From IMG/VR virus record IMGVR_UViG_2713896773_000005: DNA of 12,384 nucleotides, one strand, 5' to 3'. Shown one piece after another: positions 1 to 11,867 of the stretch. The notes below the pieces were generated by a model. That model did no database searches. It was given only the letters and a program-made list of their open reading frames with translations, and was not told where the DNA came from. Source of the stretch: a virus (lineage: Duplodnaviria; Heunggongvirae; Uroviricota; Caudoviricetes). The position numbers and the translations under genes are program-made. How positions within the stretch are numbered: position 1 is the first letter of the stretch; each line of letters opens with the position of its first letter.

Positions 1-104
1 ACCTGCTCATAGCCATCACCGAACTGCGCAGCGCGCACCGTTTGACTATATTCAATCGCCCCAGCACCGAGCTGCGAGCGCCAGCTGTATGTTTCAACTG
101 CCAT
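1..104 (-). CDS. Hypothetical protein, N-terminal fragment (gene runs off the left edge); possibly the next tail gene
   Basis: ATG at 104..102 preceded by GGAG (113..110) with 5-nt spacing, directly downstream of the terminator at 116..139. Frame is open to the window edge (MAVETYSWRSQLGAGAIEYSQTVRAAQFGDGYEQ...). GC content returns to the level of the structural genes. Only 34 codons visible and a second minus-strand frame is also open, so this is weak. Confidence 0.3.
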   Translation of the reverse strand, partial: MAVETYSWRSQLGAGAIEYSQTVRAAQFGDGYEQ

Positions 105-115
105 ATTTGCTCCAT

Positions 116-139
116 AAAAAAAGCCACCCGAAGGTGGCT
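116..139 (-). terminator. Rho-independent terminator (minus-strand orientation)
   Basis: Perfect 7-bp stem agccacc (122..128) / ggtggct (133..139) with loop cgaa, which is a UUCG tetraloop on the minus-strand RNA. It is followed on the minus strand by a T7 run (plus-strand A7 at 116..122). No T-run on the plus side. Confidence 0.6.
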
Positions 140-267
140 ACTGTCTGAATATCAGGATGTTACAAATCAAAATACCTGGTTATGTTGTGGATTCAGCCCG
201 CCAGTGGTGGGCACTGGCGCATTAATTGCCGACGGTGCGGCTGATGGCCTCGGTATAACAGGAGTTT

Positions 268-498
268 ATGATGAGCTTTAACAAAGAAGACCAGCAGGAT
301 GAAGCCTTAGCGTTTTTATTAGCTGTTGCCACTGTCGAATCAGGTGATGCTGGAGCTTTTCGCAAGCGCGTTACTGAGTATATGACGAAGGCCTACGGTG
401 GAGATACATCAAAAATGACGATGCAAGAGCAAGGTCGTGCCGAGGCGGTATCCAAATTGTACGCCAGGGCTGATAACATCTACCATCGCATCAAATAA
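268..498 (+). CDS. Hypothetical small acidic protein, 76 aa (75 aa if the second ATG is used)
   Basis: Strong SD AGGAG at 259..263 upstream of ATGATG at 268..273; stop TAA at 496..498, followed by a plus-strand terminator. The only convincing plus-strand gene in the window. No family recognised. Confidence 0.5.
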   Translation: MMSFNKEDQQDEALAFLLAVATVESGDAGAFRKRVTEYMTKAYGGDTSKMTMQEQGRAEAVSKLYARADNIYHRIK

Positions 499-504
499 TG
501 CTTT

Positions 505-527
505 GCCCCGGTTAAGCCGGGGTTTTC
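505..527 (+). terminator. Rho-independent terminator for the 268..498 gene, overlapping the 3' end of the convergent minus-strand gene
   Basis: Stem ccccgg (506..511) / ccgggg (517..522), loop ttaag, then TTTT (523..526). In the minus orientation the hairpin is not followed by a T-run, so it is unidirectional. Confidence 0.55.
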
Positions 528-769
528 AATCCGGCAATTGCCTTACTGGCATATTCTTTGGCGCGTGCTTCGACTTCGGCAAAAGAGCTGCCTGGATTGA
601 AATCCTCCTGATAGATAAACACCAGTTCATGAGGCGCATTGATTTGCTCAAGCTTGCAAACTGTAATTTTGGTTCTGACAGTCTTTATCATTTTAATTTC
701 TAAATCTGGATCGAAGCTTACAGATTCAAATCGCGAACCCATTTCAGGGAATCCTACAGTCATTTCCAT
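512..769 (-). CDS. Hypothetical protein, 85 aa
   Basis: ATG at 769..767 with SD AGGAGA (plus-strand tctcct at 774..779). Stop TAA at 514..512 lies inside the convergent terminator hairpin. Low-GC composition. No family recognised. Confidence 0.55.
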   Translation of the reverse strand: MEMTVGFPEMGSRFESVSFDPDLEIKMIKTVRTKITVCKLEQINAPHELVFIYQEDFNPGSSFAEVEARAKEYASKAIAGLKTPA

Positions 770-800
770 AACGTTCTCCTGCCTCTCGGCTACAGATATA

Positions 801-823
801 AAAAAGCCCCGCGTATGCGAGGC
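801..823 (-). terminator. Putative intrinsic terminator after the 855..1376 gene
   Basis: Hairpin gcccc-gcg / cgc-a-gggc (806..823) with one bulged base and a 4-nt loop, followed on the minus strand by T5 (plus-strand aaaaa at 801..805). Lies 31 nt downstream of the stop at 855. Confidence 0.45.
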
Positions 824-854
824 TCGTGTTCGGGTGGGGTAGATTGTGCTGGAC

Positions 855-1376
855 CTAACATCCGCGAATAATCTCGGTGTAATATTTCAAAAACTCGACT
901 CTAACCTGAGGTGGTAATCCTTTGGCTATCGCCTGTATCTGATTATCATGTTTTTTGATTAACTCATCTCCTTCAAGGCCATTAGCTGAAGAAAAAATTC
1001 TGCAAGCCAGATCTGCAACAGCGCCACGATTTAACTCCAGTGCGCCGTCCTCAATGGTGTAATAGCTGGAAGGAATCAGCGATTCAGACGGCAAAGACTG
1101 GATTTTATTCAAATCGCTACCGCAGTGCTTACATTTTATCGCCTCTTTCTTTACAAGCTCAGCGCAGTATGGGCATCGTCTCATGTCATTTTCGGTGATC
1201 TGCCTTTCTTCAATATCCCGCGCGTTACCACTTATTAAAAGAACGTGTATGATGGCAACTATAAACAACAAGCAGCCATACAACCACCAAGCGCCGAATG
1301 ATCGGCCCTTGCTTTTAGCGATGGCGGCAGGTATCAGCCCCAGAAATGCAGCTATGATGAAAAATTCCACTATCAT
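855..1376 (-). CDS. Membrane-anchored zinc-ribbon protein, 173 aa, function unknown
   Basis: Translation shows two hydrophobic helices at the N-terminus (IVEFFIIAAFLGLIPAAIA and WWLYGCLLFIVAIIHVLLISG) separated by a basic loop KSKGRS. A C-P-Y-C ... C-K-H-C four-cysteine zinc-ribbon motif follows, then a soluble domain of about 90 aa. ATG at 1376 with GAGGGG just upstream; stop TAG at 857..855. About 40% GC. Confidence 0.6.
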   Translation of the reverse strand: MIVEFFIIAAFLGLIPAAIAKSKGRSFGAWWLYGCLLFIVAIIHVLLISGNARDIEERQITENDMRRCPYCAELVKKEAIKCKHCGSDLNKIQSLPSESLIPSSYYTIEDGALELNRGAVADLACRIFSSANGLEGDELIKKHDNQIQAIAKGLPPQVRVEFLKYYTEIIRGC

Positions 1377-1431
1377 CCCCTCATTTATTATGGTGTTACC
1401 ATGATAACTAGGGGATGTCCGAATGTAACGC

Positions 1432-1656
1432 TCAAAAGGTGTTGGCGACTGCCTTTAGCGTACCCTTCGCAGTGGCAATGGCAAGCTCTTCAACTTGCTT
1501 AAGGGTCAGGTCTAGCTGATATGGCAGGTTAACAGGGACACTTGCAATGCGAGTGCAATCGTCTGGGCCATAGAAAGTCACGAAGGCACTGATCGCCTTT
1601 CCATTTTCGTTGGCATCCCAAACAACATCAGAGACCTTTACTTCTGCAATTTTCAT
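1432..1656 (-). CDS. Hypothetical protein, 74 aa, translationally coupled to the tape measure gene
   Basis: ATG at 1656..1654 overlaps the tape measure stop codon by 1 nt (TAATG). Frame open to stop at 1432. No family recognised. Confidence 0.55.
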   Translation of the reverse strand: MKIAEVKVSDVVWDANENGKAISAFVTFYGPDDCTRIASVPVNLPYQLDLTLKQVEELAIATAKGTLKAVANTF

Positions 1657-4600
1657 TAGTATTTCCCTCTAACGGCATTCCACAGCGGAGTGCCTGGTTT
1701 TCTTACTTGAGTATTAATGGTGTCAATCATTGCATCGTTGAGTTGCCTGCCAATAGCTGCAGCATTTGCTGAGCCACCTGTATTGGCCTGTCCACCTGAA
1801 CCAATGTTTATGTCACCAAAACTGACGCTGATAATTGGCACACCAGAGTCTGCCGCCCCAGCCTGATTTCCCCCAACAAGCCCACCAGAAGCGTAACGGC
1901 CTAAATTACCGTTGTTCATTAGACGATATAGGTTATCTACGCCGATCCGCCTAGTGGCTTCTTTGGTGAAAACGAACTCATCTTTATGCACGATGCCTGC
2001 GGGTTCATATTTACCGCCCGCACCTGTGTAACCACCGGAATCAAACAGGCTAACTCCAGAGTTTGCAGCGCTGGCATATGCTCCGCCTGGCGTGTTGCCA
2101 CCAGCACTACCGCTAATCCACCCCATCGCAGCCTGAACTGCATAGGCGACCAGTAACCGGTTTGTCACCTCTGCGATCATCTTTAACATGGATTTGGTGA
2201 ATTCTTTGAGGCTAGCCGTCCCAGTTGTAACCAAACTAGTCAACATGTCGGAAAGGCCACTGAACGTTGACCCCGCCACATTGCGCATTGCTTCAAATGT
2301 GTTTGTTGCGGAGTCGGCATAATCAGCCCATCCGCGTTTTGCACCAGCCTGCCAGTTACTGCGAAGTTCGTCTTCCTTCCGGTATGTCTCTTCCTGCTGA
2401 GCCAAAACTTTTTTTTGCGCGTCAGGATTGAAGGCATAGGTCTCAGACAAACGCTGACGTGTTGCCGCCCGCTCAGCCTCCCTGGTTGAAGTCCCTGCAG
2501 CTGCCGCATCAATTTCTGCTTGCTTAGCTGCCTGCTGCTGAGCAAATTTGGTCGCCTGATCGGCAAGAGAATTCAGTTTCTGCTGCCTTGCAATCTGATC
2601 GCCCAATGCTGCATTAATATCAGCCTGCGCGAGAAGTTTATCCTTATTGGCGAGCAGTGACTTCTCATCAATGGTAAGCGCACGGCCTTTTGGATCATTT
2701 GCCGTTGCCTCGAGAATACTGATTTTGGATATCAGTTCCCATTGCTGCTTACGTTGCTGACTGATTACATCGTTAATATCACGATGTTCTTGAAGCGTTT
2801 TTAGCTGCGCTTGCAGAGCTAAAGTCTCAGCATTGTAAGTGTCGGTTGAGCGATCACCTGCAGACACCTTAACGGCTGGGGTTTTGGGCGTTTTATTTGG
2901 GTGAAACTGCTTGTTTATCGCGTCAACTGCCTGTTGGCGTTGTTGCTCACTCCATTTATCAGGAGCGAGTGCGACATTTTTCCATAGCTCAGACAGAGCT
3001 TTAGTGCGTTTCTCCTGCCAGGTCGCTGACTGTTCAAGGATACGATTCCGATAAATCAGTGCATCGGTACGTTTATTGTCGGCATCGGCCGCCTGTTTTT
3101 CTGACTCATTAATTTCCTTTTGAGTGGATACTTCTTTTTGCTTTAGGCCGATCTGCTCCTTCAGGGATGCTATAGCCGCCAACTGAGCCTTGCGTCGTGA
3201 GTCATACTCCTGATCGCTACTGCTCGTATCATAGCTGTAGCCATACCCCATCCGTTGTCTTTCTGGTAGGAGAGCCTTCTCATACTCAGCAAGCTGCGCC
3301 TGCATCTTCTTAAGCATATCGGCAGGCGCTTCTGGACGACCGATATCAAGAAGGCTGTCCCACATCCCCTTGATGGCGTCACCAGTCGCTTTAGCCGCTT
3401 TCTCGATAAAGCCCATATTGTCGAGGATTTGCTGGCTGCGCTTCTGCTCAGCCTCGCTATAGGCTTTGGCTGCCGCCTCTGCCGCGCCCTCTTTATCACC
3501 CCGCCGTTCCAGCGCCGAAATATAGTCGTATTGGGATGAGGTGAGGAAATGGAGCGTCGAATTAAGATCTTCCGCTGCCTTGGTTGGGCTTGCATACAGT
3601 TTTTGGAAGTTCTTAATGGTGCTATCAACAGATTGGCCAGTGGCCTCCTGCATCGCCAGTGCTGCCCGGGTAACTGTTTCGAGCTGCTCCGTTTTAAATG
3701 TACCTGCTCCAACCACCTCTGCGAGTGTTCGAGCGGCAGCCGCAACCTTTCCACTGGAGCCGCCAATTTTTTGAGCCATGTCCGACAACTGGCTCGCAGA
3801 ACTTGCCGAATAATTACCCGTGAGTATCAGCTGCTTATTAAACTCACTGGCTTCCTGGCTGCCTTTGTACCAGGCAACAGCCATAGCACCAAGACCAACC
3901 ACTAAGCCGCCAATCCCTACTGTCACCGGATTAATGAAACCAATCAGGGTGCGTAAATAATCGCCTACACCAGTCAGCGCGCCCTTGACCCCACCGAACT
4001 GGTCTTTAATCTGCCCGCCCTGTTGCAGAAGGATCAGGAACGGCGACTGACCGCCAGCCAGCTGCGTGGCGATATCGGTGAATTGCGCCGGAAGCGTGCG
4101 CATTGCTGCGCTGTACTGACCAACGGAGATTCCAGCGCGCCGGGCAGCAGCTTCCTGCCGGGATAGCGCCTCTGGTAGTACGTCAGCGACACCAGAGAGG
4201 CGCTCACGCGTCTGGTTAAGGATTGTGTTGAAGTGCTCGAACTGAGCACCGTTAATGCGCCCAGCTTCGAAATGTTCCACCAGCTGTGCGTGCTGTTCAT
4301 CCAACGAATTGAACGCGCGGATAGTCGGGTCGATGGATCCAAGAAGGTTCTTTAACGCTGCGGACTGCTTTTCTGCCGCCTGGGTAGCGGCTAATTCAGC
4401 CTGAGCGCGCGCCGCGGCTTCTCCGGTGTCGGTCAGCTTGAGGCGGGTGTCATCCAGGATTTTGTTGTATGCCTGAAAGGTATCGGTATCCAGGAAACCT
4501 TTGGCCTGGAATTTCCGCAGCGATTCTTGCTGCTCATCCAGGCGGTTTAAGGCCTTGGTAACCGGGTCGATATTCTCCAGCAGCCCTTTGAGCGCGTTCT

Positions 4601-4787
4601 GCTGCTCCTTGAGTCCTTCGCTGCCTTGCTTCGCAGATTCAGCGCCAGCGCGAAACACGCTATTCAGATCATCTGCTTTATCTACAGCACCGGCCGCCGC
4701 CTGGCCGAGTTTATCCAGTTCGTTGCTGGCTGTTTTCAGGTCAGAAACATCGGCCCGCAAAGTAATCGAGGCGATCTGGTCTGTCAT
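1656..4787 (-). CDS. Tail tape measure protein, 1043 aa
   Basis: Longest ORF in the window, immediately downstream of the chaperone G/GT pair. N-terminal part is Ala/Gln/Glu/Leu-rich with a duplicated motif of about 55 aa. A central hydrophobic glycine-rich segment (LIGFINPVTVGIGGLVVGLGAMAVAWY) and a Gly/Ser/Ala-rich C-terminus follow. Start ATG at 4787..4785 overlaps the stop of the upstream T frame (TAATG). Confidence 0.9.
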   Translation of the reverse strand: MTDQIASITLRADVSDLKTASNELDKLGQAAAGAVDKADDLNSVFRAGAESAKQGSEGLKEQQNALKGLLENIDPVTKALNRLDEQQESLRKFQAKGFLDTDTFQAYNKILDDTRLKLTDTGEAAARAQAELAATQAAEKQSAALKNLLGSIDPTIRAFNSLDEQHAQLVEHFEAGRINGAQFEHFNTILNQTRERLSGVADVLPEALSRQEAAARRAGISVGQYSAAMRTLPAQFTDIATQLAGGQSPFLILLQQGGQIKDQFGGVKGALTGVGDYLRTLIGFINPVTVGIGGLVVGLGAMAVAWYKGSQEASEFNKQLILTGNYSASSASQLSDMAQKIGGSSGKVAAAARTLAEVVGAGTFKTEQLETVTRAALAMQEATGQSVDSTIKNFQKLYASPTKAAEDLNSTLHFLTSSQYDYISALERRGDKEGAAEAAAKAYSEAEQKRSQQILDNMGFIEKAAKATGDAIKGMWDSLLDIGRPEAPADMLKKMQAQLAEYEKALLPERQRMGYGYSYDTSSSDQEYDSRRKAQLAAIASLKEQIGLKQKEVSTQKEINESEKQAADADNKRTDALIYRNRILEQSATWQEKRTKALSELWKNVALAPDKWSEQQRQQAVDAINKQFHPNKTPKTPAVKVSAGDRSTDTYNAETLALQAQLKTLQEHRDINDVISQQRKQQWELISKISILEATANDPKGRALTIDEKSLLANKDKLLAQADINAALGDQIARQQKLNSLADQATKFAQQQAAKQAEIDAAAAGTSTREAERAATRQRLSETYAFNPDAQKKVLAQQEETYRKEDELRSNWQAGAKRGWADYADSATNTFEAMRNVAGSTFSGLSDMLTSLVTTGTASLKEFTKSMLKMIAEVTNRLLVAYAVQAAMGWISGSAGGNTPGGAYASAANSGVSLFDSGGYTGAGGKYEPAGIVHKDEFVFTKEATRRIGVDNLYRLMNNGNLGRYASGGLVGGNQAGAADSGVPIISVSFGDINIGSGGQANTGGSANAAAIGRQLNDAMIDTINTQVRKPGTPLWNAVRGKY

Positions 4788-5101
4788 TATTTCGTCTCCT
4801 TATGCATTACCTTGAGAGCCTCGCTTTCCATAATTTGAAGGTCAGCCATGCAGGCCGCCGCATCCTCAACCCCGTGTAACTCGAACATCCAGGGGAGAAC
4901 GTTGTAATCAAGGCCGGTCGCCCCGCTCGCGCCGACGCGCCACTGGGTTGCCAGGGCAGAGAAGATGGTGAAAGACTTCCACACAGAGGGCAGGATACCC
5001 ACCTCTTCCTCCACGTCCTCAGGCGTCAAACCAAAAGCGGCTAACTCCGCGAGAGTCGGTCCCGGCGTGTACAACGCTGCGGCGACCTGCCTTAGTTTTT
5101 T
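4787..5101 (-). CDS. Tail assembly chaperone GT, C-terminal (T) extension reached by a -1 frameshift from G
   Basis: The -1 frame relative to G is open from the slippery site at 5101..5095 through to the stop at 4789..4787. It has no credible start of its own: the listed start at 5074 is a TTG with no SD. Position between G and the tape measure gene matches the conserved G/GT arrangement. Confidence 0.7.
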   Translation of the reverse strand, partial: KKLRQVAAALYTPGPTLAELAAFGLTPEDVEEEVGILPSVWKSFTIFSALATQWRVGASGATGLDYNVLPWMFELHGVEDAAACMADLQIMESEALKVMHKETK

Positions 5102-5430
5102 TCGCGGATACCCATCAGCTCTTTGGTGTAGGCCAGACCGATGCTGTCGAACGCGCGCGGGTAGTTCTGAAGAAGGACAATAACGTTGTCGCGGGTGAAC
5201 TCGTCAGGTAGTGCCCACCCCTCGACAATTTCCATGAGGTAGTCGGCCTGCGGCTCGATAGCAGCCTTTTTACCTTCAGCCGACTTTTGCAGCTTTTCAT
5301 CCATAGAGCGCAGCTCTTCCAGTGTCTTGTGGCGGAAGGTAAAGGTCAGCTTGCCGTCTTCAGCACCAGCGCGCGGGATGCTGGCGGTAACGGAGAAGGT
5401 CGGGTTCGGGATCAGGGAGAATTTGGTCAT
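5092..5430 (-). CDS. Tail assembly chaperone G-like, 112 aa
   Basis: ATG at 5430..5428 with SD AAGGA upstream. Small acidic protein immediately upstream of the tape measure gene, ending at the slippery site. Assigned by position and architecture, not by sequence similarity. Confidence 0.75.
   Translation of the reverse strand: MTKFSLIPNPTFSVTASIPRAGAEDGKLTFTFRHKTLEELRSMDEKLQKSAEGKKAAIEPQADYLMEIVEGWALPDEFTRDNVIVLLQNYPRAFDSIGLAYTKELMGIREKN
5095..5101 (-). other. Programmed -1 ribosomal frameshift site (slippery heptamer A AAA AAC)
   Basis: On the minus strand the G gene ends ...CGC GAA AAA AAC TAA. The heptamer A-AAA-AAC fits the X XXY YYZ pattern three codons before the G stop, and a -1 slip enters the open T frame (...K/N-L-R-Q-V-A-A-A-L-Y-T-P...). 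Confidence 0.7.
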
Positions 5431-5443
5431 TTCGGTTCCTTAG

Positions 5444-5468
5444 AAAAACGAAACCCGCCGTAGCGGGT
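5444..5468 (-). terminator. Putative intrinsic terminator after the KilA-N-like gene
   Basis: Stem acccgc (5453..5458) / gcgggt (5463..5468), loop cgta, followed on the minus strand by TTTCGTTTTTC (plus 5444..5452). Sits 1 nt after the stop at 5470 and just upstream of the G-gene SD. Confidence 0.5.
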
Positions 5469-5469
5469 A

Positions 5470-6000
5470 TTAGTTAATGCCGGGCAGATACATCTGGACT
5501 TCGTCGGCGACGCGATCCCGGGCTGCATGTAATAGCTGCTTGCGACCACCAACACCCCACTTGGCCATTTGGCTGGCACACTGGCTAATTGCCTTGGTTT
5601 CAGTGTTGATGATGTGGTCGATTTTGTTCAGGCGGGACATGGCACTGATACCAAGACGCACCACTGTTCTAAATACTTCGTACACTTCAATCTCAAACTC
5701 TGGCTTTATCCAGGCGGCATAGCGGATTGCCAGAAGTTCAATGCCCCATGCACCACTTTGATCACCGCCTTTTATAACCTTAAGTGGTTGATTTTGTTCC
5801 GAAGCACTTTTTAGTGCTTTGGATTTTAGCGCTTTAACGAAGCGTTTGATCTGCGCGCTACGCAGGAAGACGCTGGGCCTTTGTGACTCAGTAGCCTCTC
5901 CGTTAGCTACCGCTGCCGCATGAAGATCGTTAAGACTGTACCGGCCTTCGTCATCAACGCGGACGGAGACCCCATTCACTGAGACGGTTGGGTGATTCAT
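5470..6000 (-). CDS. KilA-N domain-like protein (putative DNA-binding or antirepressor-like insert), 176 aa
   Basis: Translation contains ...GGDQSGAWGIELLAIRYAAWIKPEFEIEVYEVF..., which matches my recollection of the conserved KilA-N/APSES core (G-x-W ... LA ... A-W-I-x-P-E-F). ATG at 6000..5998 with an AAGG-type SD. Flanked by terminator hairpins on both sides. Confidence 0.55.
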   Translation of the reverse strand: MNHPTVSVNGVSVRVDDEGRYSLNDLHAAAVANGEATESQRPSVFLRSAQIKRFVKALKSKALKSASEQNQPLKVIKGGDQSGAWGIELLAIRYAAWIKPEFEIEVYEVFRTVVRLGISAMSRLNKIDHIINTETKAISQCASQMAKWGVGGRKQLLHAARDRVADEVQMYLPGIN

Positions 6001-6185
6001 GGTGTGTACCTTTTAAAAAGCGAACCTGTTCACACAGAAAAGCCGCCCCAAGAGGCCCACCGGCACTAACGGCAGTTCTCAGGAACGCTTTCTGAAAGGT
6101 TCTTGGTTAGAGAGCGCGTGTGAAGGCGCAGTTTGAAAAGATGGGTAATGCGAATACAGAAAATTCGCCAGCGGTACTCATTGCG

Positions 6186-6208
6186 AAATAAAGCCCGGCG
6201 AACCGGGC
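6186..6208 (-). terminator. Rho-independent terminator after the tail tube gene
   Basis: Stem gcccgg (6193..6198) / ccgggc (6203..6208), loop cgaa (UUCG on the RNA), followed on the minus strand by TTTATTTCG (plus 6186..6192). Confidence 0.55.
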
Positions 6209-6216
6209 CTGATTGG

Positions 6217-7149
6217 TTAGCTGACAGTAACGGTGCATGCCGCCGACGTTAGGGTCTTGCCTGCGGCGTCAGTGACTTCGCAGGTATAAACGCCAGCATC
6301 ACCGGATGAGACAGACGAAATGTTGAACGTCGAGGCGGTTTTGCCCGGAATTGCGGAGCTTCCTTTCTTCCACACGTAGGTGTAAGGGGCTGAGCCGCCT
6401 TGCATAACGACGGCTAAATCGAGCGCATCTCCAACACTAACTGCTTTGGTTGATGGCAGATCAGTCAGGAACGCCAGCGGCGTAACGGATGAATCGGCGA
6501 TCGGGTAAATCTGCATATCCGATTCGAAGTTCATGCGCGCTTCGTTGCTTTCCACGGCGTTGATTTCGGTCTTAGGCACCTTCTGGAAAGACACTTTGGC
6601 AGAGTAATAACGGTCCGCTTTGCCGCGCGGGTTATGGAACCACACAGCAGTGGTGTCGCTGGATTCGTCAAGTTCACTCAGACGCTTGTAAATTGCCAGC
6701 AGCGGATCGTGCGCGAAGGTGTAGACCTGCACCACGGCGTTTTTGAAGGTCGGGATGGTACGGGCCTTATCGTCTTCAAGGAACTGCACGCTGATGGTCT
6801 GCTGGTCACCACCCTCTGTGGAGAGGGTCATCACCTGCGGCATCGTGATCCACGTGTCGATTTTACGCAGCGTGCCCGCGCCAGTGCCTGCCGGGAATTT
6901 GGTGGTGTCAGAGGTATCGAACGAATCCAGCACGATTTTGGTACCGGCTACGGATTTAACGCGCAGCACCATATTATCGAGTTTTAGCCAGCCGGAGCTC
7001 ACCTGCACTACGTCGCCCGCCAGGATGCCAGCGGCAGATGCAACAGTCAGTTCGCATTCAGTAGCGTTAGAGGCAGCGGTAAAGGTGATGGGAGCCTGAT
7101 AGGCCTTGGCCACGTTAACACGCGAGCCGTTAGGGATTGCGAATGCCAT
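6217..7149 (-). CDS. Major tail (tube) protein with C-terminal Ig-like domain, 310 aa
   Basis: Sits between the tail-terminator-like gene and the G/GT chaperones, the canonical position. SD AGGAG upstream of ATG at 7149..7147. C-terminal ~80 aa (...PYTYVWKKGSSAIPGKTASTFNISSVSSGDAGVYTCEVTDAAGKTLTSAACTVTVS) has an immunoglobulin-like pattern (W ... DAGVYTC ...). Confidence 0.75.
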   Translation of the reverse strand: MAFAIPNGSRVNVAKAYQAPITFTAASNATECELTVASAAGILAGDVVQVSSGWLKLDNMVLRVKSVAGTKIVLDSFDTSDTTKFPAGTGAGTLRKIDTWITMPQVMTLSTEGGDQQTISVQFLEDDKARTIPTFKNAVVQVYTFAHDPLLAIYKRLSELDESSDTTAVWFHNPRGKADRYYSAKVSFQKVPKTEINAVESNEARMNFESDMQIYPIADSSVTPLAFLTDLPSTKAVSVGDALDLAVVMQGGSAPYTYVWKKGSSAIPGKTASTFNISSVSSGDAGVYTCEVTDAAGKTLTSAACTVTVS

Positions 7150-7170
7150 AGCACTCTCCTGAATTTAGGT

Positions 7171-7195
7171 AATAAAAAACCCGCCATCTGGCGGG
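7171..7195 (-). terminator. Rho-independent terminator immediately upstream of the tail tube gene
   Basis: Perfect stem cccgcc (7180..7185) / ggcggg (7190..7195), loop atct, followed on the minus strand by TTTTTTATT (plus 7171..7179). Starts directly after the stop of the 7196..7645 gene. Confidence 0.6.
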
Positions 7196-7645
7196 TCAGT
7201 AGTCAGCGCGGTACTGCATGCTGACGGGAATGGTGTAGGTTATGGAGCCACTGGACCCGTTGGACGCCGAGGTTGGCCGGTCCTGGATGGGTTGTCTCAC
7301 CTGCGGCGGCCCATTGATATAAACAGTCAGGTCACCATCCACCAGCGCAAGCCCTTCAGGAAATGCATCAGCGACAGATTTAGCCAGCCCTCTGGCCTGC
7401 GTCACGCCGCTGCCTGCTGGCGCAATGATGTTGAGCTGCAGGATGCCCTGATAGGTTCGCAATTGACCTTCCAGGTCTTGCCCCACCGTCTGTGCCGGCA
7501 GAACATAAACACGCCCGTATGGTGAGCTATCCGGGGGAGTAAACGGTATGTTCGGCCAGGCTACGGGCAGCCCAAGCGATAAGCAGATAACCGCAATGCG
7601 GCTCTCCAGTAGTTCAGCAATTCGCATTGACTGGTCACTGGCCAT
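7196..7645 (-). CDS. Putative tail terminator / tail completion protein, 149 aa
   Basis: ATG at 7645..7643 with SD GAGGTG. Located immediately upstream of the tube gene. Sequence pattern (...PYGRVYVLP...G..Q..I.AP.G.G...) resembles tail-terminator-type proteins; assignment is mainly positional. Confidence 0.45.
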   Translation of the reverse strand: MASDQSMRIAELLESRIAVICLSLGLPVAWPNIPFTPPDSSPYGRVYVLPAQTVGQDLEGQLRTYQGILQLNIIAPAGSGVTQARGLAKSVADAFPEGLALVDGDLTVYINGPPQVRQPIQDRPTSASNGSSGSITYTIPVSMQYRADY

Positions 7646-8234
7646 TGCGCACCTCGCTCATTGCCTCACGGAACAACTGCGCGGCATCCAGCGCAGTGAT
7701 GCCCACCATGCCGCCGGGTGCCTGGCCGGAATGCCCGTTCTCCAGTGCTGCCGCATATGGCAGATTATTGGTGAAGAAAATCGAGCTGACCTGCCCTACC
7801 CGGAACACCTCGAGCACTGCCAGACCGCGGGAGTTGGAACCCTGGCCGGAAGCGTCGGGGGTGTCGTTGGATTGGCTTGGCTGGCTGTCAAAGCCCACAT
7901 ACCAGTTGTTTTTAAACCGCCCGCCGACATAGCCCTCAGGCTTTTTGATGTCCATCGAGTCGTTGACGCGCAGGCCGCGCTTAAGTCGTCCTGATTTGGT
8001 CAGATTAGCCGGGTCATCACGCAGGGTCGCGTTATGCTCCCGCACCGCAGTGTTGTACGCCGTCGCGGTCTGGTTGACCTGCCAGATATCCGGTTGGCCC
8101 ACCGGGGACATCTCAACCAGTTGAGCGAGGATTTTAATACCCGTCCGGCGCACCACCTCGTCCATCTCCTGCTTCGAGCCATCCACGAACAGCTGAATGG
8201 CAGCCAGGAACGGCTGATTAACAGACCCCACCAT
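7635..8234 (-). CDS. Putative tail completion / head-tail joining protein (HK97 gp10-like), 199 aa
   Basis: ATG at 8234..8232 with SD GAGGG; overlaps the next gene by 11 nt. The C-terminal motif ENGHSGQAPGGMV recalls the HK97 gp10 family signature; position is consistent. Confidence 0.45.
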   Translation of the reverse strand: MVGSVNQPFLAAIQLFVDGSKQEMDEVVRRTGIKILAQLVEMSPVGQPDIWQVNQTATAYNTAVREHNATLRDDPANLTKSGRLKRGLRVNDSMDIKKPEGYVGGRFKNNWYVGFDSQPSQSNDTPDASGQGSNSRGLAVLEVFRVGQVSSIFFTNNLPYAAALENGHSGQAPGGMVGITALDAAQLFREAMSEVRNGQ

Positions 8235-8236
8235 AG

Positions 8237-8590
8237 TTACGCCCTCAGCTGGATGTTGTAGGAGATCAGCACATCGGCAGGCTTAACCGGATTCGGCTGT
8301 ACCACGCGCCACTTTTTGCTGTCGATTTCGATGCGGTCATCGATGCGCACTTCCGTCTCGAAAGTGGCCGCCAGCTTCTTGTCGCCGGTGGCGATCAGGG
8401 AACCGTCGATTTCGCGGGAGGAGTATTCGGTGATAACACCGGTTACGGTCGCGGTAATGGCCGGGGTGGTGACCTCTTTGCCGAACTGGTCACGGATGGT
8501 GCCGCCGCCGCGGGTAAGCTGATATGCCTTCCCGTTCTCGGTCAGCAGTCGGGTCGCGGTCGCGCGCATGCGGCGATAGTCGATTGCCAT
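8237..8590 (-). CDS. Putative head-closure / head-tail joining protein, 117 aa
   Basis: Tightly packed ORF (ATG at 8590, 1-nt gap from the preceding stop) between the adaptor-like and gp10-like genes. Assignment by gene order only. Confidence 0.4.
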   Translation of the reverse strand: MAIDYRRMRATATRLLTENGKAYQLTRGGGTIRDQFGKEVTTPAITATVTGVITEYSSREIDGSLIATGDKKLAATFETEVRIDDRIEIDSKKWRVVQPNPVKPADVLISYNIQLRA

Positions 8591-8591
8591 G

Positions 8592-9074
8592 CTACCCCCT
8601 TTCGACCCGGACCTGGTTGCCGCCCACTACAAGCCCGCGCAGTGCGGAATAGAACCATGGGAATGACGGAGAAGCTTTATTCGTTCCCGGCTCATACTGG
8701 ACTGTTACCGCACCCTCGACGCGCTCCATCGTAACCGCCCCACCGCCAGCGACCGACGGGGTGAGGTCAATCTCCTGCGATTCGATGGCCAGGCGACATT
8801 GAGCATCAATCAGGCGCTGTGGAATCGCATCATTCGACAGGTCAACACCATCGAAGCGCACGCCGGAACGCGGCCAGGATAGAGGCTGTGATGCGCTGGA
8901 ACGCTGACCGCGCCAGGCCTTCCCTTCCAGAAAGTCCATTGCCTGCATCAGCATCTGGCTGCATTCGCCATCTTCAGCAGGGATGGTGTATCCGCGCCCC
9001 GCAGCGAACGCGCGCAGATCACCAACGCTGGCATAGCTGTTGAAGTCAGACGAATGGGGATCGGCATTAATCAT
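8592..9074 (-). CDS. Putative head-tail adaptor (gp6-like / DnaT-like domain), 160 aa
   Basis: ATG at 9074..9072 with SD GAGGAG. The motif ...AWRGQRSSASQPLSWPRSGV... resembles the conserved core of phage head-tail connector proteins. Position downstream of the capsid gene fits. Confidence 0.45.
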   Translation of the reverse strand: MINADPHSSDFNSYASVGDLRAFAAGRGYTIPAEDGECSQMLMQAMDFLEGKAWRGQRSSASQPLSWPRSGVRFDGVDLSNDAIPQRLIDAQCRLAIESQEIDLTPSVAGGGAVTMERVEGAVTVQYEPGTNKASPSFPWFYSALRGLVVGGNQVRVERG

Positions 9075-9087
9075 CTCAGAGCTCCTC

Positions 9088-9399
9088 TCAGGCTTCGAAA
9101 AGCTTCTGCTTTAACGCATATCCCATCAACGCCCACAACTCGCTTTCGGCGTTCTCAATAGCAATTTTCTCGCCAATTTCAGCGTTGTCGTTAGCGGAGG
9201 AAACTGAGCACGACGGATTCCCTGTTACTGCGAATCCGTTTTGAGTGGTGATGACCGCCCAGCGAAGCACCTGCCCGGTGACGGATACGTGCTTCACGAT
9301 CTCGGCATGCTTAATATTCGCCTTCAACTCGCCCAGCGTAACGCGCGGCGCGTTCAAGCCTTTGGCCTGAATTTCCTGCTCAATATCTTTATCGCTCAC
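9088..9399 (-). CDS. Gp49-like (Phage_gp49_66-type) protein of unknown function, 103 aa
   Basis: GTG start at 9399..9397 with SD GGAGG at 6-nt spacing. Translation (...NGFAVTGNPSCSVSSANDNAEIGEKIAIENAESELWALMGYAL...) resembles this widespread phage family as I recall it. Confidence 0.45.
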   Translation of the reverse strand: MSDKDIEQEIQAKGLNAPRVTLGELKANIKHAEIVKHVSVTGQVLRWAVITTQNGFAVTGNPSCSVSSANDNAEIGEKIAIENAESELWALMGYALKQKLFEA

Positions 9400-9401
9400 A
9401 G

Positions 9402-9602
9402 TTACTCCTCCAGTCGCCAGTCCAGCGCCAGCCAGTTATCGACTTCGTCAGGGTGAACCTCAGCGCTCAGCGGACCGCCGGGGAACTCCGGGGTATCTCG
9501 CATCATAGCCACCAGCTCAATACCTGTTTGTTCAGCGCCGTTCTGCGCGGCAAGCTTTTCAGCCTCACGCTGCGCGCTCTGCTCTTTGGTTAATCCGGCC
9601 AT
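9402..9602 (-). CDS. Hypothetical protein, 67 aa
   Basis: ATG at 9602..9600 preceded by SD AGGAGG (plus 9607..9612) with 4-nt spacing. The longer ORF-track version (to 9692) would overlap the capsid gene 3' end and its terminator, so it was trimmed. Confidence 0.5.
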   Translation of the reverse strand: MAGLTKEQSAQREAEKLAAQNGAEQTGIELVAMMRDTPEFPGGPLSAEVHPDEVDNWLALDWRLEE

Positions 9603-9610
9603 TGGGCCTC

Positions 9611-9635
9611 CTGAAAACAAAGGGGCCGAAGCCCC
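9611..9635 (-). terminator. Rho-independent terminator after the major capsid gene
   Basis: Stem ggggc (9622..9626) / gcccc (9631..9635), loop cgaa (UUCG on the RNA), followed on the minus strand by TTTGTTTTC (plus 9611..9620). Lies 5 nt downstream of the capsid stop at 9641. Confidence 0.55.
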
Positions 9636-9640
9636 CTGGG

Positions 9641-10780
9641 TTAACCCATGATGATGGCGGAATGACGTGGCGCCACAGCAGCCACACCCCATGCCAGGCC
9701 CACTTCATAACGCACCTGACGGTACTGGCGGTACAGCGCCACCTGGAAGGTGATGCCAGATACCGGGTCGGTCACATTCATGACGTCATCAGCAGTATCG
9801 CCACCTTCAGGCATCGCCGGGGTACGGCTGGCCAGCAGGAATGCCCCGCGGTCAAACGCCATGTTCGGTACAAATTCGCTCAACACAGTGACATCAGCCT
9901 GGTCTGCCAGATCCTGACGGAGGCCCGGCGCGCTAATAGTGATAGTGGAAGACGTAGCCGCAACGACCAGATACTGATTGTCATCACCGGCGAACTTCAC
10001 CGCAGTACCTGCAGCAATACCGCCGGTGCCAGCAGAGATAGCGATGATGATATCGCCCTCTTTCTTCGCGCCATTGACCTTATAGCCAGCAGCAGCGCTT
10101 TTCGCGGTACGCTTGATGCTGAAGGATTCGTGGAGGTTGAAGCCCATGATGCGACCGATAACACCTTCACGCAGCAGTTGGTCGGTTCCCGCTTCGTTCG
10201 CTTTGAAGAGTACAGCCTGTTTACCACGGATGGATGCCATCGCTTCGCCACCCAGCACCATACGCAAATCAGTAGTCGGCGCACCGTTATCGGTCAGGAT
10301 TTGACGCGCCAACGCAGCATCAGTCAGATCGTCTTTGATGCTGAACGGGGTATTCTTTGGCGCGCCAACAGCGCGGGAGGAGTTGAGGTACAGCGCAGCG
10401 AGATCCGCATCCACTTCGTTCGCCAGCGCACGGAAAGCCTGCTTGAACTGGTCAGCCAGGATGGTGTTGTAGGTACCAGCCGGGCCCAGAGCCAATTGCT
10501 CTTCACCATTCCATTTCACCGGGGCCATTTTGGATTTGGTGATTTTGACATCCACACCACCGATGGTCTGGTCGCCAGAATTAGGCGCTGAAGGTCCAGG
10601 GACAATATCTTCAGTGGTGGCTGCAGGTGCGACTGGCGCACGTACGGTCTGGTCTTTTGCAGCAGCATCCGCTTTCGCGTCACGCGCCACCGCAGGAATA
10701 AAACCAGTTTGCTCGCGGGACACTACGTACAGCGCGGTATAGATGGTCGGGATCAGACCAGTAAGGGTATTGCCTGCCAT
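9641..10780 (-). CDS. Major capsid protein (HK97-fold type), 379 aa
   Basis: Large ORF with SD AGGAGC upstream of ATG at 10780..10778, directly after a scaffold-like gene and before the head-tail joining genes. Composition and length are typical of siphovirus major capsid proteins. High GC (about 60%). Confidence 0.8.
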   Translation of the reverse strand: MAGNTLTGLIPTIYTALYVVSREQTGFIPAVARDAKADAAAKDQTVRAPVAPAATTEDIVPGPSAPNSGDQTIGGVDVKITKSKMAPVKWNGEEQLALGPAGTYNTILADQFKQAFRALANEVDADLAALYLNSSRAVGAPKNTPFSIKDDLTDAALARQILTDNGAPTTDLRMVLGGEAMASIRGKQAVLFKANEAGTDQLLREGVIGRIMGFNLHESFSIKRTAKSAAAGYKVNGAKKEGDIIIAISAGTGGIAAGTAVKFAGDDNQYLVVAATSSTITISAPGLRQDLADQADVTVLSEFVPNMAFDRGAFLLASRTPAMPEGGDTADDVMNVTDPVSGITFQVALYRQYRQVRYEVGLAWGVAAVAPRHSAIIMG

Positions 10781-10797
10781 TTATGGCTCCTTTCGAT

Positions 10798-11550: not shown

Positions 11551-11631
11551 TGTTTTTGCTCCAGCCTTCCGGCCATTGGTAATAGGTCATCCGACCCGGT
11601 CACCGCGTCGCATCCGCTCAGCGGCAGGCAT

Positions 11632-11655
11632 AAAAAAGGCCACCCGAAGGCAGCC
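11632..11655 (-). terminator. Rho-independent terminator separating the two-gene accessory unit from the head genes
   Basis: Stem ggccacc (11638..11644) / ggcagcc (11649..11655), which forms 7 pairs on the minus-strand RNA including two G-U wobbles. Loop cgaa (UUCG on the RNA), followed on the minus strand by T6 (plus A6 at 11632..11637). Nearly identical in sequence to the terminator at 116..139. Confidence 0.6.
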
Positions 11656-11657
11656 TG

Positions 11658-11867
11658 TTAGATAAATTCGACGGTTATTACGCCGCGCAGTTTGCGGGTA
11701 TAGACTTCATCGCGCTTTCGCTTATGGACCCGAATGGGGTATGGGTAGAAGCATGCTATTCCTCGCTTAACATCCGCCCATACGCAGCGCTTGACCTCGT
11801 TGCCGTTAACGAACACTCGGCGCTTACCGCGGCCATCGCCCACATGGTGAAAATCGTCATCTCGCAT
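11658..11867 (-). CDS. Hypothetical small basic protein, 69 aa
   Basis: ATG at 11867..11865 preceded by a G-rich SD (GGGGGGTGG), 23 nt downstream of the DUF2829-like gene stop. Stop at 11658 abuts the terminator. The ORF-track start at 11885 is a TTG without SD, so the ATG was preferred. No family recognised. Confidence 0.5.
   Translation of the reverse strand: MRDDDFHHVGDGRGKRRVFVNGNEVKRCVWADVKRGIACFYPYPIRVHKRKRDEVYTRKLRGVITVEFI

What the first reader, a model, noticed from the sequence alone, without database searches (positions are those of the whole stretch)
140..1431. AT-rich accessory island between the tape measure region and the next downstream gene
Hand counts over 60-nt samples give about 38-42% GC here, against about 47% in the tape measure gene and 53-63% in the capsid, KilA-N and DUF2829 regions. 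The island carries three small genes of no recognisable family (173-aa membrane zinc-ribbon protein, 85-aa protein, convergent 76-aa protein) and is bounded by terminators (116..139, 505..527, 801..823). A low-GC, self-terminated insert inside a tail operon is the classic signature of a moron, and such positions frequently hold superinfection-exclusion, defence or anti-defence cargo. This is the best place in the window for an undescribed system.
Basis: partly seen in the sequence, partly recalled or inferred. Interest (0 to 1): 0.7.

Follow-up and report, generated by a model that had tools for sequence, protein, structure and literature searches.

The report
Composite moron cluster beside tape-measure gene
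The low-GC stretch between the tape-measure gene and the next tail gene of this lambda-like prophage is a real, dispensable "moron" patch made of at least two independently acquired cassettes: one is the phage HK97 gene 22/23 moron already annotated as such in the HK97 genome record, and the other is an unstudied membrane zinc-ribbon protein that recurs next to tail genes in many prophages, so it is a typical example of a known kind with unknown cargo function.

Summary
GC is 45.6% for 140-1431, against 52.3% for the tape-measure gene (TMP) and 55.9% for the head and tail genes.

All three ORFs and all three hairpin terminators are at the stated coordinates. Two of the "unrecognisable" genes are orthologues of HK97 Gp22 and Gp23 (93% and 95% amino-acid identity). 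The HK97 record annotates these as "moron product" and "reverse moron product". Here they lie between H and M rather than between I and J.

Sister prophages show an empty site. The roughly 680-bp module sits between two 9-bp AAAAAAGCC repeats formed by two terminators.

The 173-aa (probably 171-aa) protein has two transmembrane helices, a Zn ribbon and a helical C-terminal domain. It has its own promoter-like site and its own terminator. In sister prophages it is replaced by a 128-aa membrane-anchored protein or a 137-aa lipoprotein.

Relatives of the zinc-ribbon protein sit at T|H, H|M, L|K and K|I tail junctions in other prophages. Its function is untested. My best guess is inner-membrane superinfection exclusion or defence at genome entry. 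It matches no known defence family.

The parts
1..104 (-). 5' end of the minor tail protein M gene (lambda gpM family). This is the conserved downstream border of the island.
   Evidence: Annotated 'phage tail protein' in the identical E. coli stretch. Equivalent genes in related loci carry PF05939 Phage_min_tail. Positions 1-125 are 99% identical in prophages that lack the island.
116..139 (-). Intrinsic terminator T1, of the HK97 type. It forms the left end of the 22/23 module and stands immediately upstream of the gpM start.
   Evidence: Found by the terminator scan. Fold energy -12.7 kcal/mol, z -2.75. It aligns with the terminator annotated before gene J in HK97.
126..799 (.). Inserted HK97 22/23 moron module. 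It is bounded by 9-bp direct repeats AAAAAAGCC (117-125 and 800-808) that are the U-run and stem starts of terminators T1 and T2.
   Evidence: Window 100-792 is 90.3% identical in DNA to HK97 14452-15145. The empty site is seen in E. coli ABWA45, where the gpM start abuts T2 directly. The repeat is family D2.
195..267 (+). Conserved leader upstream of the gp23-like gene. It contains the stem-loop GCCCGCCAGTGGTGGGC and the RBS AGGAG.
   Evidence: 97% identical to HK97 (2 differences in 73 nt). The adjacent 140-194 is 67% identical, and the coding region has pS 0.36. No sigma-70 consensus was detected. The fold is not better than shuffles (z -0.6), so its role is unknown.
268..498 (+). Orthologue of HK97 Gp23 ('reverse moron product'), 76 aa, or 75 aa from the second ATG at 271. 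It is transcribed against the tail operon.
   Evidence: 95% identical to HK97 Gp23 over 75 aa. pN/pS is 0.08 against HK97 in this frame. The exact 75-aa protein is indexed in 958 collection blocks. No family or structure match.
505..527 (+). Hairpin terminator between the convergent genes. It is effective mainly for the gp23-like transcript. The stop codon of the gp22-like gene lies in its loop.
   Evidence: Fold energy -14.7 kcal/mol followed by UUUUCAAU on the plus strand; there is no U-run on the minus strand. It corresponds to the terminator annotated in HK97.
512..769 (-). Orthologue of HK97 Gp22 ('moron product'), 85 aa. It is soluble, with predicted beta strands followed by a C-terminal helix.
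   Evidence: 93% identical to HK97 Gp22 over 85 aa. pN/pS is 0.15. Only 12 relatives were found in 5.8 billion proteins. The AlphaFold model is unusable (pLDDT 48). The only conserved upstream sequence is about 23 nt carrying the RBS, so there is no evident promoter of its own.
801..825 (-). Intrinsic terminator T2. It is the conserved downstream border of the variable cargo slot.
   Evidence: Found by the terminator scan. Fold energy -15.5 kcal/mol, z -4.31. The same terminator follows the 128-aa, 137-aa and zinc-ribbon cargo genes in sister prophages, and the sequences diverge right after the stem.
855..1376 (-). Membrane zinc-ribbon protein (ZnR). It has two TM helices (about residues 2-20 and 29-50), a C4 zinc ribbon (residues 65-89) and a helical C-terminal domain (about 97-173). 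The likely true start is GTG at 1370, giving 171 aa.
   Evidence: Pfam Zn_ribbon_3, 34.8 bits against a cut-off of 27. phrog_8436 matches the N-terminal half and phrog_1788 the ribbon plus C-terminal domain. Hydropathy supports the two TM helices. AlphaFold pLDDT is 84.7. pN/pS is 0.15 against the Citrobacter copy. The RBS GAGGGG abuts the ATG but lies 6 nt from the GTG; PGAP aa, and homologues start 'ME..'.
1401..1429 (-). Promoter-like site for the ZnR gene (GTTACA, 17-nt spacer, TATCAT), in the 55-nt spacer 1377-1431.
   Evidence: The consensus scan scores 9 of 12. The spacer is 55/55 identical between the window and Citrobacter braakii, while the flanking genes show pS 0.24-0.33. Function as a promoter has not been shown.
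1432..1656 (-). orf74, a 74-aa soluble protein. Its ATG overlaps the TMP stop codon (TAATG), so it is translationally coupled to the tape-measure gene. It always accompanies ZnR in this prophage lineage.
   Evidence: ORF list and sequence. phrog_2891, E 1.4e-19, function unknown. It is found with ZnR in all 8 places shown, and the protein is indexed in 211 collection blocks. pN/pS is 0.39. It is absent from sister prophages. There is only one close cluster among 1.84 billion representatives.
1656..2064 (-). Mosaic 3' end of the tape-measure gene (about the last 135 codons). It belongs to the same variable block as orf74 and ZnR.
   Evidence: There is no nucleotide match to sister prophages between 830 and 2064, while 2065 onwards is 91% identical to L011. 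The C-terminal 150 aa are 24-36% identical in the 10 loci with other cargo and 89-100% identical in the 9 loci with orf74+ZnR. GC is 48.4% against 52.9% for the rest of the TMP.

Best explanation
The region is a composite cluster of morons: dispensable cassettes dropped into the tail operon of a lambda-like prophage, at the junction between the tape-measure gene (H) and the minor tail gene M.

It has two layers.
1. A cargo slot directly after the TMP. Its upstream border lies inside the TMP gene at about position 2064, and its downstream border is terminator T2. Here the slot holds orf74 plus the membrane zinc-ribbon protein ZnR. Sister prophages hold a 128-aa N-anchored protein or a 137-aa lipoprotein instead.
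2. The HK97 gene 22/23 module. It was inserted between T2 and gene M by recombination at the AAAAAAGCC shared by two terminators.

That anatomy is shown, with confidence about 0.9.

The function is inferred, with confidence about 0.35-0.4. I propose that ZnR is made in the lysogen from its own promoter and sits in the inner membrane. There it would interfere with genome entry of incoming siphophages at the site where their tape-measure protein opens the inner membrane. That would be superinfection exclusion or entry-stage defence, in the manner of HK97 gp15, T4 Imm, P22 SieA or SNIPE. In this model the Zn-ribbon plus helical domain is the recognition head and the TM hairpin is an exchangeable anchor.

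Gp22-like and orf74 have no evident promoter of their own, so they are probably expressed with the late operon. Gp23-like is transcribed in the opposite direction, so if expressed it needs a promoter of its own, which was not identified. The roles of these three proteins are unknown.
For: Dispensability and modularity:
- E. coli H6 has TMP, a 128-aa gene, 22, 23, then M.
- ABWA45 has TMP, the 128-aa gene, then M, with no 22/23 module.
- Ten further loci show three alternative cargos in the same slot.
- Nucleotide breakpoints lie at about 825 and about 2065.

Coding reality: pN/pS is 0.08, 0.15, 0.15 and 0.39 for the four genes.

Composition: 45.6% GC in the island against 55.9% in the head and tail genes.

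Autonomy of ZnR: it has a promoter-like site and a terminator, and its spacer is fully conserved.

Identity with the HK97 moron.

All three alternative cargos are predicted envelope proteins. ZnR has two TM helices. The 137-aa protein has a lipobox, LVGC. The 128-aa protein has an N-terminal anchor.

ZnR relatives recur at tail junctions in unrelated prophage lineages:
- H|M in Cronobacter phage phiES15. The ribbon and C-terminal domain are homologous (hhalign 99.4%), with a different TM hairpin.
- T|H, which is the HK97 gene 15 slot, in Salmonella phage FSL SP-016.
- Directly upstream of a 960-aa 'tail protein' that I take to be the TMP, so a T|H-like position, in Klebsiella phage ST974-OXA48phi18.2.
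- L|K in Edwardsiella.
- K|I in Atlantibacter and Serratia.
- In a myovirus baseplate cluster.

A Pseudomonas phage protein in the T|H slot joins a PF14373 Imm_superinfect TM hairpin to a homologous Zn ribbon (hhalign 97.4%).

Precedents: HK97 gp15 is a tail-operon moron that blocks superinfection from the inner membrane (PMC3594210). SNIPE is a membrane-anchored defence protein that acts at injection sites together with tape-measure proteins (PMC13190303).
Against: - There are no experimental data for any of the four proteins. Literature searches found nothing on zinc-ribbon morons.
- The 2TM plus Zn-ribbon module also occurs as a lone small gene in many distant phyla. There its neighbours are ordinary metabolic genes and show no phage hallmarks. 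The module is therefore not intrinsically an anti-phage device.
- Topology is unresolved. The conserved positive loop KSKGR argues for a periplasmic C-terminal head. Zinc-ribbon chemistry and the phiES15 homologue (N-terminal MKK) argue for a cytoplasmic head.
- The linkage of ZnR with the TMP C-terminal type may reflect nothing more than physical adjacency in one acquired block.
- No promoter was detected for the gp23-like gene.
Confidence: 0.45

Rival explanations
1. ZnR is an abortive-infection type sensor-effector. The cytoplasmic Zn-ribbon and helical head would sense a phage product or the injected DNA. The TM hairpin would then oligomerise and depolarise the membrane, killing the infected lysogen.
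For: The architecture is small: a two-TM hairpin plus a cytoplasm-compatible Zn ribbon. The head domain is conserved while the TM hairpins are exchangeable. It is an autonomous promoter/terminator unit in a prophage.
Against: There is no match to any PADLOC Abi or defence model. The module is widespread as a lone housekeeping-context gene in other phyla, which fits a toxic effector poorly. No toxicity data exist.
Confidence: 0.15
2. The cargo proteins are lysogenic-conversion or host-physiology factors unrelated to phage defence, for example small membrane regulators of envelope stress, transport or colonisation. Tail-operon junctions would simply be permissive landing sites.
For: The 2TM plus Zn-ribbon module is an ancient, widespread bacterial small membrane protein found among metabolic genes in many phyla. 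The moron concept explicitly includes host-benefit genes of many kinds (PMC3594210). No defence family was matched.
Against: ZnR relatives are repeatedly placed right beside or inside the tape-measure and tail-tip gene set, in every one of the roughly 10 enterobacterial and Pseudomonas phage or prophage lineages examined. A related protein is fused to an Imm_superinfect hairpin.
Confidence: 0.2
3. Some island genes, especially orf74 and gp22-like, are non-essential virion or tail-assembly accessories expressed with the late operon. For example, orf74 could be a partner of the type-A TMP C-terminus. On this view they are not lysogen-expressed cargo.
For: The orf74 start overlaps the TMP stop (TAATG), and no terminator or promoter lies between them. 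orf74 co-occurs with the type-A TMP C-terminus in 9 of 9 loci. gp22-like has only an RBS conserved upstream and no evident promoter of its own. orf74 shows weak similarity to repeats of giant surface proteins, which hints at an Ig-like fold.
Against: Sister prophages with otherwise near-identical tail genes lack orf74. The gp22 module sits at I|J in HK97 and at H|M here, which is hard to square with a position-specific assembly role. In Citrobacter the gp22-like gene is missing and an IS200/IS605-type transposase gene occupies its place, without loss of the neighbouring genes. Phages with about 50% identical TMP C-termini (phi80, mEp043) have no orf74 homologue detectable by tblastn.
Confidence: 0.15
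4. There is no real feature. The low GC would be sampling noise and the small ORFs chance reading frames.
For: Single 60-nt samples vary from 33 to 62% GC.
Against: This is the lowest-GC 1.3-kb stretch in the window, and GC3 drops by 15-30 points. All four ORFs show purifying selection. The insertion and empty-site pairs are precise.
Confidence: 0.02

Closest known systems
HK97 gene 22 / gene 23 moron ('moron product' Gp22 and 'reverse moron product' Gp23, annotated in the HK97 genome record NC_002167)
   Same: Window 100-792 is 90% identical in DNA. The proteins are 93% and 95% identical. Both share the convergent gene pair, the hairpin between the genes and the terminator T1 in front of the next tail gene.
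   Different: The module is inserted between I and J in HK97 and between H and M here. The HK97 ORFs are annotated longer (120 and 86 aa) because of a loop substitution (TTAA to TCAA) and a 2-bp indel. No function is known for either protein.
HK97 gene 15 moron (gp15, an inner-membrane superinfection-exclusion protein beside the tape-measure gene)
   Same: A small membrane protein encoded by a self-contained cassette directly flanking the tape-measure gene of a lambdoid phage. A short ZnR relative occupies exactly the gene 15 slot in the HK97-like Salmonella phage FSL SP-016.
   Different: There is no sequence relationship (hhalign probability 0.3%). gp15 is 62 aa with one TM helix and no Zn ribbon. 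Here the cassette lies downstream of the TMP, not upstream.
T4 Imm / Pfam PF14373 Imm_superinfect two-TM proteins
   Same: A two-helix membrane hairpin with a short positively charged loop. Pseudomonas phage YMC11/02/R656 gp065 joins a PF14373 hairpin to a Zn ribbon homologous to the one here, and it lies in the T|H slot.
   Different: The hairpin of the window protein does not match PF14373; 0 of 27 family members match at E up to 10. Only the Zn ribbon is demonstrably homologous.
Cronobacter phage phiES15 gp43 and PHROG 1788 / 8436 'zinc ribbon domain-containing' phage proteins
   Same: The same H|M junction. The Zn ribbon and the helical C-terminal domain are homologous (hhalign 99.4% over 110 columns).
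   Different: The N-terminal TM hairpin is different, with a longer loop. All of these proteins are uncharacterised, so the comparison names a family and not a function.
SNIPE (membrane-anchored nuclease that cleaves phage DNA during injection; PMC13190303)
   Same: Conceptual only. An inner-membrane-anchored protein acts at the injection site, and its specificity is tied to siphophage tape-measure proteins.
   Different: ZnR has no DUF4041 or GIY-YIG domain and is far smaller. SNIPE is not a tail-operon moron.

Membership tests
Moron (as defined in PMC3594210, which follows the original HK97/HK022 work) | Extra DNA lies between genes that are adjacent in related phages | tested here: met
   ABWA45 has T2 abutting the gpM start, with no 22/23 module. 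H6, L011 and L012 lack orf74 and ZnR.
Moron (as defined in PMC3594210, which follows the original HK97/HK022 work) | [quoted passage not shown] | tested here: met
   45.6% against 52.3% (TMP) and 55.9% (head and tail genes). GC3 is 40-48% against 57-78%.
Moron (as defined in PMC3594210, which follows the original HK97/HK022 work) | Own terminator | tested here: met
   T1 (139..122), T2 (825..804) and the 505..527 hairpin.
Moron (as defined in PMC3594210, which follows the original HK97/HK022 work) | Own promoter | tested here: inconclusive
   ZnR has a 9/12 consensus site in a fully conserved 55-nt spacer. gp23-like has a conserved leader but no recognisable sigma-70 site. gp22-like and orf74 have no evident promoter.
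Moron (as defined in PMC3594210, which follows the original HK97/HK022 work) | Expression from the repressed prophage | not testable with these tools
   Needs RNA-seq or 5' RACE of an uninduced lysogen.
HK97 Gp22 / Gp23 | Sequence orthology over the full length of the proteins | tested here: met
   79/85 and 71/75 identical residues. The DNA is 90.3% identical.
HK97 Gp22 / Gp23 | Same genomic position (between I and J) | tested here: not met
   Here the module lies between the tape-measure block and gene M.
Pfam PF13248 Zn_ribbon_3 | Score above the gathering threshold, with four Cys in CPxC...CxxC spacing | tested here: met
   34.8 bits against 27. C68, C71, C82 and C85 are invariant in 27 homologues.
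Pfam PF14373 Imm_superinfect (T4 Imm-like) | Profile match of the two-TM hairpin | tested here: not met
   No member of alignment A2 matches at E up to 10. hhalign to a genuine PF14373 plus Zn-ribbon protein aligns only the ribbon.
HK97 gp15 superinfection-exclusion protein | Sequence or profile homology | tested here: not met
   hhalign probability 0.3%.
HK97 gp15 superinfection-exclusion protein | Blocks phage DNA entry when expressed from the prophage | not testable with these tools
   Needs plating and DNA-entry assays.
Known anti-phage defence systems (PADLOC-DB 2.0) | Match to any defence protein model | tested here: not met
   The only hits are noise at E 0.01 or weaker, for the four window proteins and the 128-aa alternative cargo.
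SNIPE | [quoted passage not shown] | tested here: not met
   Pfam finds only zinc-ribbon models in ZnR.

The most novel reading that the evidence does not exclude
The Zn-ribbon plus helical-domain proteins (PHROG 1788 / 8436 type) would be a widespread, so far unrecognised class of prophage-encoded entry-stage exclusion or defence proteins. They are anchored by interchangeable TM hairpins. Phages place them beside their own tape-measure gene. Their specificity would be matched to the tape-measure C-terminus, which here has been swapped together with the cargo. On this reading the H|M and T|H junctions of lambdoid tails are dedicated hot-spots for envelope-located immunity genes.
Probability: 0.3. 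Interest if true: 0.6.

Novelty: new member of a known kind. Interest (0 to 1): 0.35.

Why it matters
Morons in tail operons are a well-known phenomenon, and half of this island is the HK97 22/23 moron, annotated as such in the HK97 genome record. The island as such is therefore ordinary.

Three things add some value.
1. It gives a clean, base-pair-resolved example of how such cassettes are exchanged. The 22/23 module is inserted at a 9-bp microhomology between two intrinsic terminators. The variable slot has one border inside the tape-measure gene.
2. A family of membrane zinc-ribbon proteins recurs at T|H, H|M, L|K and K|I junctions in prophages of Enterobacterales and Pseudomonas. I found no study of it.
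3. All three alternative cargos of this slot are predicted envelope proteins.

If the family proves to block genome entry, it would add a common prophage-borne immunity class. It would also give a handle on the still poorly understood inner-membrane step of siphophage DNA injection. That remains untested.

Tried and rejected
- Structure route for gp22-like. The model had pLDDT 48 with a 10-sequence alignment, so no fold search was attempted.
- Sequence searches against the PDB found nothing for the three small proteins and only noise for the ZnR family profile.
- NCBIfam, Pfam and PADLOC gave no functional family beyond Zn_ribbon_3.
- Rfam found no RNA family in 1-2200.
- The conserved gp23 leader does not fold better than shuffled sequence.
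- orf74: tblastn against 50,697 phage records gave no hit. The scan of 1.84 billion representatives gave one close cluster, plus weak multi-repeat hits to giant surface proteins with SprB or Ig-like repeats. I treat this only as a hint of a beta-sandwich fold.
- Rejected idea: that ZnR is a gp15 or Imm homologue.
- Rejected idea: that the island is a single insert.
- Rejected idea: that the 2TM plus Zn-ribbon module is phage-specific.
- Literature searches for zinc-ribbon morons, exclusion proteins or tail-operon hotspots returned nothing specific.
Full report
**Source and layout.** Window 1-1700 is 100% identical to a prophage of E. coli NZ_LR536430.1 that lies next to tonB/yciI. The genes run on the minus strand in this order:
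- capsid and tail genes;
- tail assembly chaperones;
- tape-measure protein (TMP), 1656..4787;
- orf74, 1432..1656;
- the 173-aa zinc-ribbon protein (ZnR), 855..1376;
- the 85-aa gene, 512..769;
- the 76-aa gene on the plus strand, 268..498;
- minor tail protein M, starting at position 104.

**Check of the observation.**
- The terminator scan finds the minus-strand sites 139..122 and 825..804.
- The hairpins fold at -12.7 and -15.5 kcal/mol, better than all 200 shuffles.
- The 505..527 hairpin has a usable U-run only on the plus strand, so it mainly serves the 76-aa gene.

- 4788-12384 is 55.9% GC.

The stretch is nevertheless the lowest-GC 1.3 kb of the window. Third-position GC is 40-48% in the island genes against 57-78% in most head and tail genes. 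The compositional step is real but about 10 points deep, not 15-20.

**The four genes are real.**
- Against HK97, the 76-aa frame has 17 synonymous and 5 non-synonymous changes (pN/pS 0.08).
- Against HK97, the 85-aa frame has 11.5 synonymous and 6.5 non-synonymous changes (pN/pS 0.15).
- Against a Citrobacter braakii copy, ZnR has pN/pS 0.15. This splits into 0.07 for the TM and ribbon half and 0.21 for the C-terminal domain.
- Against the same copy, orf74 has pN/pS 0.39.

**Half of the island is already known.** Window 100-792 is 90.3% identical to HK97 14452-15145. The HK97 record annotates that stretch as Gp22 'moron product', Gp23 'reverse moron product' and two putative terminators. It lies between tail genes I and J. 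The proteins are 93% and 95% identical to the window's. So the 85-aa and 76-aa genes are not family-less. They are the HK97 22/23 moron in a different tail junction.

The alignment also explains why the HK97 ORFs are annotated longer. A TTAA to TCAA change in the hairpin loop removes the gp22 stop codon, and a 2-bp indel shifts the end of gp23. The 73 nt upstream of gp23 (195-267) are 97% conserved, more than the coding sequence, while 140-194 is only 67% identical. I found no sigma-70 consensus there, no Rfam match and no significant fold. How gp23 is transcribed stays open.

**The island is dispensable and composite.**
- E. coli H6 matches window 1-824 at 99.8% and then diverges. A 128-aa gene stands between T2 and the TMP.
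- E. coli ABWA45 matches only 1-125 and the T2 terminator (800-829). There the gpM start ...CCATAAAAAAAGCC runs straight into the T2 stem CCGCGTATGCGAGGCT.

The 22/23 module (about 126-799) is therefore an insertion flanked by the 9-bp repeat AAAAAAGCC. That repeat is the U-run and first stem bases of two different terminators.

Ten further loci carrying the identical gp23-like protein show three alternative cargos between T2 and the TMP:
- orf74 plus ZnR;
- a 128-aa protein with an N-terminal membrane anchor;
- a 137-aa protein with a lipoprotein signal...LVGC.

The upstream border of this slot lies inside the TMP. Nucleotide similarity to sister prophages resumes only at about 2065. The last 150 residues of the TMP are 24-36% identical in the 10 loci with other cargo, and 89-100% identical in the 9 loci with orf74+ZnR. 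The N-terminal 300 residues are 89-100% identical in all full-length TMPs compared; the H6 TMP gene is fragmented and was not comparable. Because the pieces are physically adjacent, this linkage may only mean that they were acquired as one block.

**orf74.** Its start overlaps the TMP stop (TAATG). It was found with ZnR in every place examined in this lineage.

**ZnR.**
- It has two hydrophobic helices, at about residues 2-20 and 29-50.
- It has a C4 ribbon that passes Pfam Zn_ribbon_3.
- It has a helical C-terminal domain. The AlphaFold model has pLDDT 84.7.
- The likely start is the GTG at 1370. The RBS lies 6 nt upstream of it, PGAP aa, and homologues begin 'ME...'.
- The 55-nt spacer upstream carries GTTACA-17-TATCAT. 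The spacer is 55/55 identical in Citrobacter, although the flanking genes have pS 0.24-0.33. T2 follows the gene.

ZnR is thus the one cassette here with the full promoter-gene-terminator anatomy of a moron.

Homologues at 37-49% identity over the full length occur across Enterobacterales. Every phage or prophage context I opened lies in a late or tail region:

| Host or phage | Position |
|---|---|
| Edwardsiella | L\|K |
| Atlantibacter | K\|I |
| Serratia | K\|I |
| Klebsiella myovirus | baseplate cluster |
| Enterobacter prophages | after the tailspike |
| HK97-like Salmonella phage FSL SP-016 | T\|H (the HK97 gene 15 slot) |
| Klebsiella phage ST974-OXA48phi18.2 | just upstream of a 960-aa 'tail protein', probably the TMP |
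| Cronobacter phage phiES15 | H\|M |

phiES15 gp43 shares the ribbon and the C-terminal domain (hhalign 99.4%) but has a different TM hairpin. Pseudomonas phage YMC11/02/R656 gp065, in the T|H slot, joins a genuine PF14373 Imm_superinfect hairpin to a homologous ribbon (hhalign 97.4%). The ribbon-plus-head part therefore looks like the conserved working part, and the membrane anchor looks interchangeable.

**Limits on the inference.**
- ZnR is not related to HK97 gp15.
- It does not match PF14373 or any PADLOC model.
- It has no informative structural neighbour.
- A scan of one genome per species found the 2TM-plus-ribbon module (residues 3-90, 35-56% identity) in Bryobacteraceae, Planctomycetota, Chloroflexota, Cyanobacteria, Latescibacterota and others.
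- The 111 neighbouring proteins of 27 such loci are ordinary metabolic, transport and signalling proteins. No phage hallmark is among the most frequent families.

The module is thus an old bacterial small membrane protein that phages have borrowed. PMC3594210 describes HK97 gp15 as a small inner-membrane protein. That gp15 resembles the host protein YebO is my own recollection and was not checked here.

Topology is unresolved. The invariant positive loop (K23-G24-R25) predicts a periplasmic head. Zinc-ribbon chemistry and the MKK N-terminus of the phiES15 relative predict a cytoplasmic head.

**Most likely mechanism.**

Shown:
- The cluster is a dispensable, modular, low-GC patch with terminators.
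- One cassette looks autonomous.
- All alternative cargos of the slot are predicted envelope proteins.
- ZnR relatives recur next to tape-measure and tail-tip genes.

Inferred:
- ZnR is made in the lysogen and sits in the inner membrane.
- It interferes with genome entry of incoming siphophages at the step where the TMP opens the inner membrane.

The inference rests on analogy to gp15 (PMC3594210) and on the SNIPE precedent for membrane-anchored proteins acting with tape-measure proteins at injection sites (PMC13190303). I put this at about 0.35-0.4. The rivals are abortive infection (0.15), a host-physiology factor (0.2), and late-expressed accessory roles for orf74 and gp22 (0.15). gp22-like and orf74 lack evident promoters and are probably read with the late operon. 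gp23-like is transcribed against the late operon, so if expressed it needs a promoter of its own, which I could not identify.

**Verdict.** The finding is a correct call of a moron region, with inaccurate GC figures and an incomplete gene list. It is a new member of a known kind. The 22/23 half is already annotated in HK97, and the ZnR half belongs to an uncharacterised but common prophage protein family. Interest is moderate to low (0.35). It would rise if ZnR proved to be an entry-stage immunity protein tied to the tape-measure C-terminus.

Noticed in passing
window 5470-6000 (-): A 176-aa ORF lies between the tail tube gene and the tail assembly chaperone. The equivalent 176-aa gene in related loci carries PF04383 KilA-N. 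It has lower GC (50.7%, GC3 51%) than its neighbours. In NZ_LR536430.1 and several sister prophages the same slot instead holds a 290-aa 'tail tip fiber' gene plus a 111-aa gene. This is a second variable, moron-like slot in the tail operon. It also shows that the window is not NZ_LR536430.1 throughout.
   Followed up: partly
window 1656-2064 (-): The last ~135 codons of the tape-measure gene are mosaic. They are 24-36% identical in protein to sister prophages whose TMPs are otherwise at least 89% identical, and about 50% identical to the TMP C-termini of phi80, mEp043 and mEp213.
   Followed up: yes
L001 (HK97) 6309-6671 and 6171-6431, against window 505-527: The HK97 annotations of Gp22 (120 aa) and Gp23 (86 aa) overlap each other and run through the hairpin. 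In the window, and in most relatives, the genes end at 85 and 76 aa. The difference comes from one loop substitution and a 2-bp indel. The HK97 extensions may not be meaningful.
   Followed up: partly
L042 (Citrobacter braakii) 5693-6433: An IS200/IS605-type Y1 transposase gene sits where the gp22-like gene should be, and only a 10-codon ORF is called in the remaining gap. gp23-like, ZnR and orf74 are intact.
   Followed up: no
L002 12135-12884 and L004 4135-4884 (outside the window): A 249-aa hypothetical gene lies between minor tail genes L and K in some sister prophages and is absent in others. This is another variable tail junction.
   Followed up: no
L002 4692-4925 and 9553-10673 (outside the window): In NZ_LR536430.1 the same prophage carries a cor exclusion lipoprotein gene downstream of J. 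It also has an IS3-family ISSen4 element between the tail assembly gene I and J.
   Followed up: no
L049-L123 (genome-contig hits): The 2TM plus zinc-ribbon module (ZnR residues 3-90) occurs at 35-56% identity as a lone small gene in many distant phyla, among housekeeping genes and with no conserved neighbourhood.
   Followed up: partly
window 1432-1656 (-), orf74: A single-sequence search of 1.84 billion representatives gave weak multi-stretch hits (E 1.7e-7 to 1e-4) to repeats in giant surface proteins, two of which I scanned and found to carry SprB or Ig-like repeats. This hints that orf74 may be a small beta-sandwich domain. The evidence is not robust.
   Followed up: partly
E. coli NZ_LR536431.1 and MB06232 (hits H15, H16): Only window 100-217 (T1 plus the start of the gp23 leader) matches, at 92.5%, next to a J gene. 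A fragment of the module's left end is thus kept in front of J in HK97-like prophages that seem to lack the two genes.
   Followed up: no
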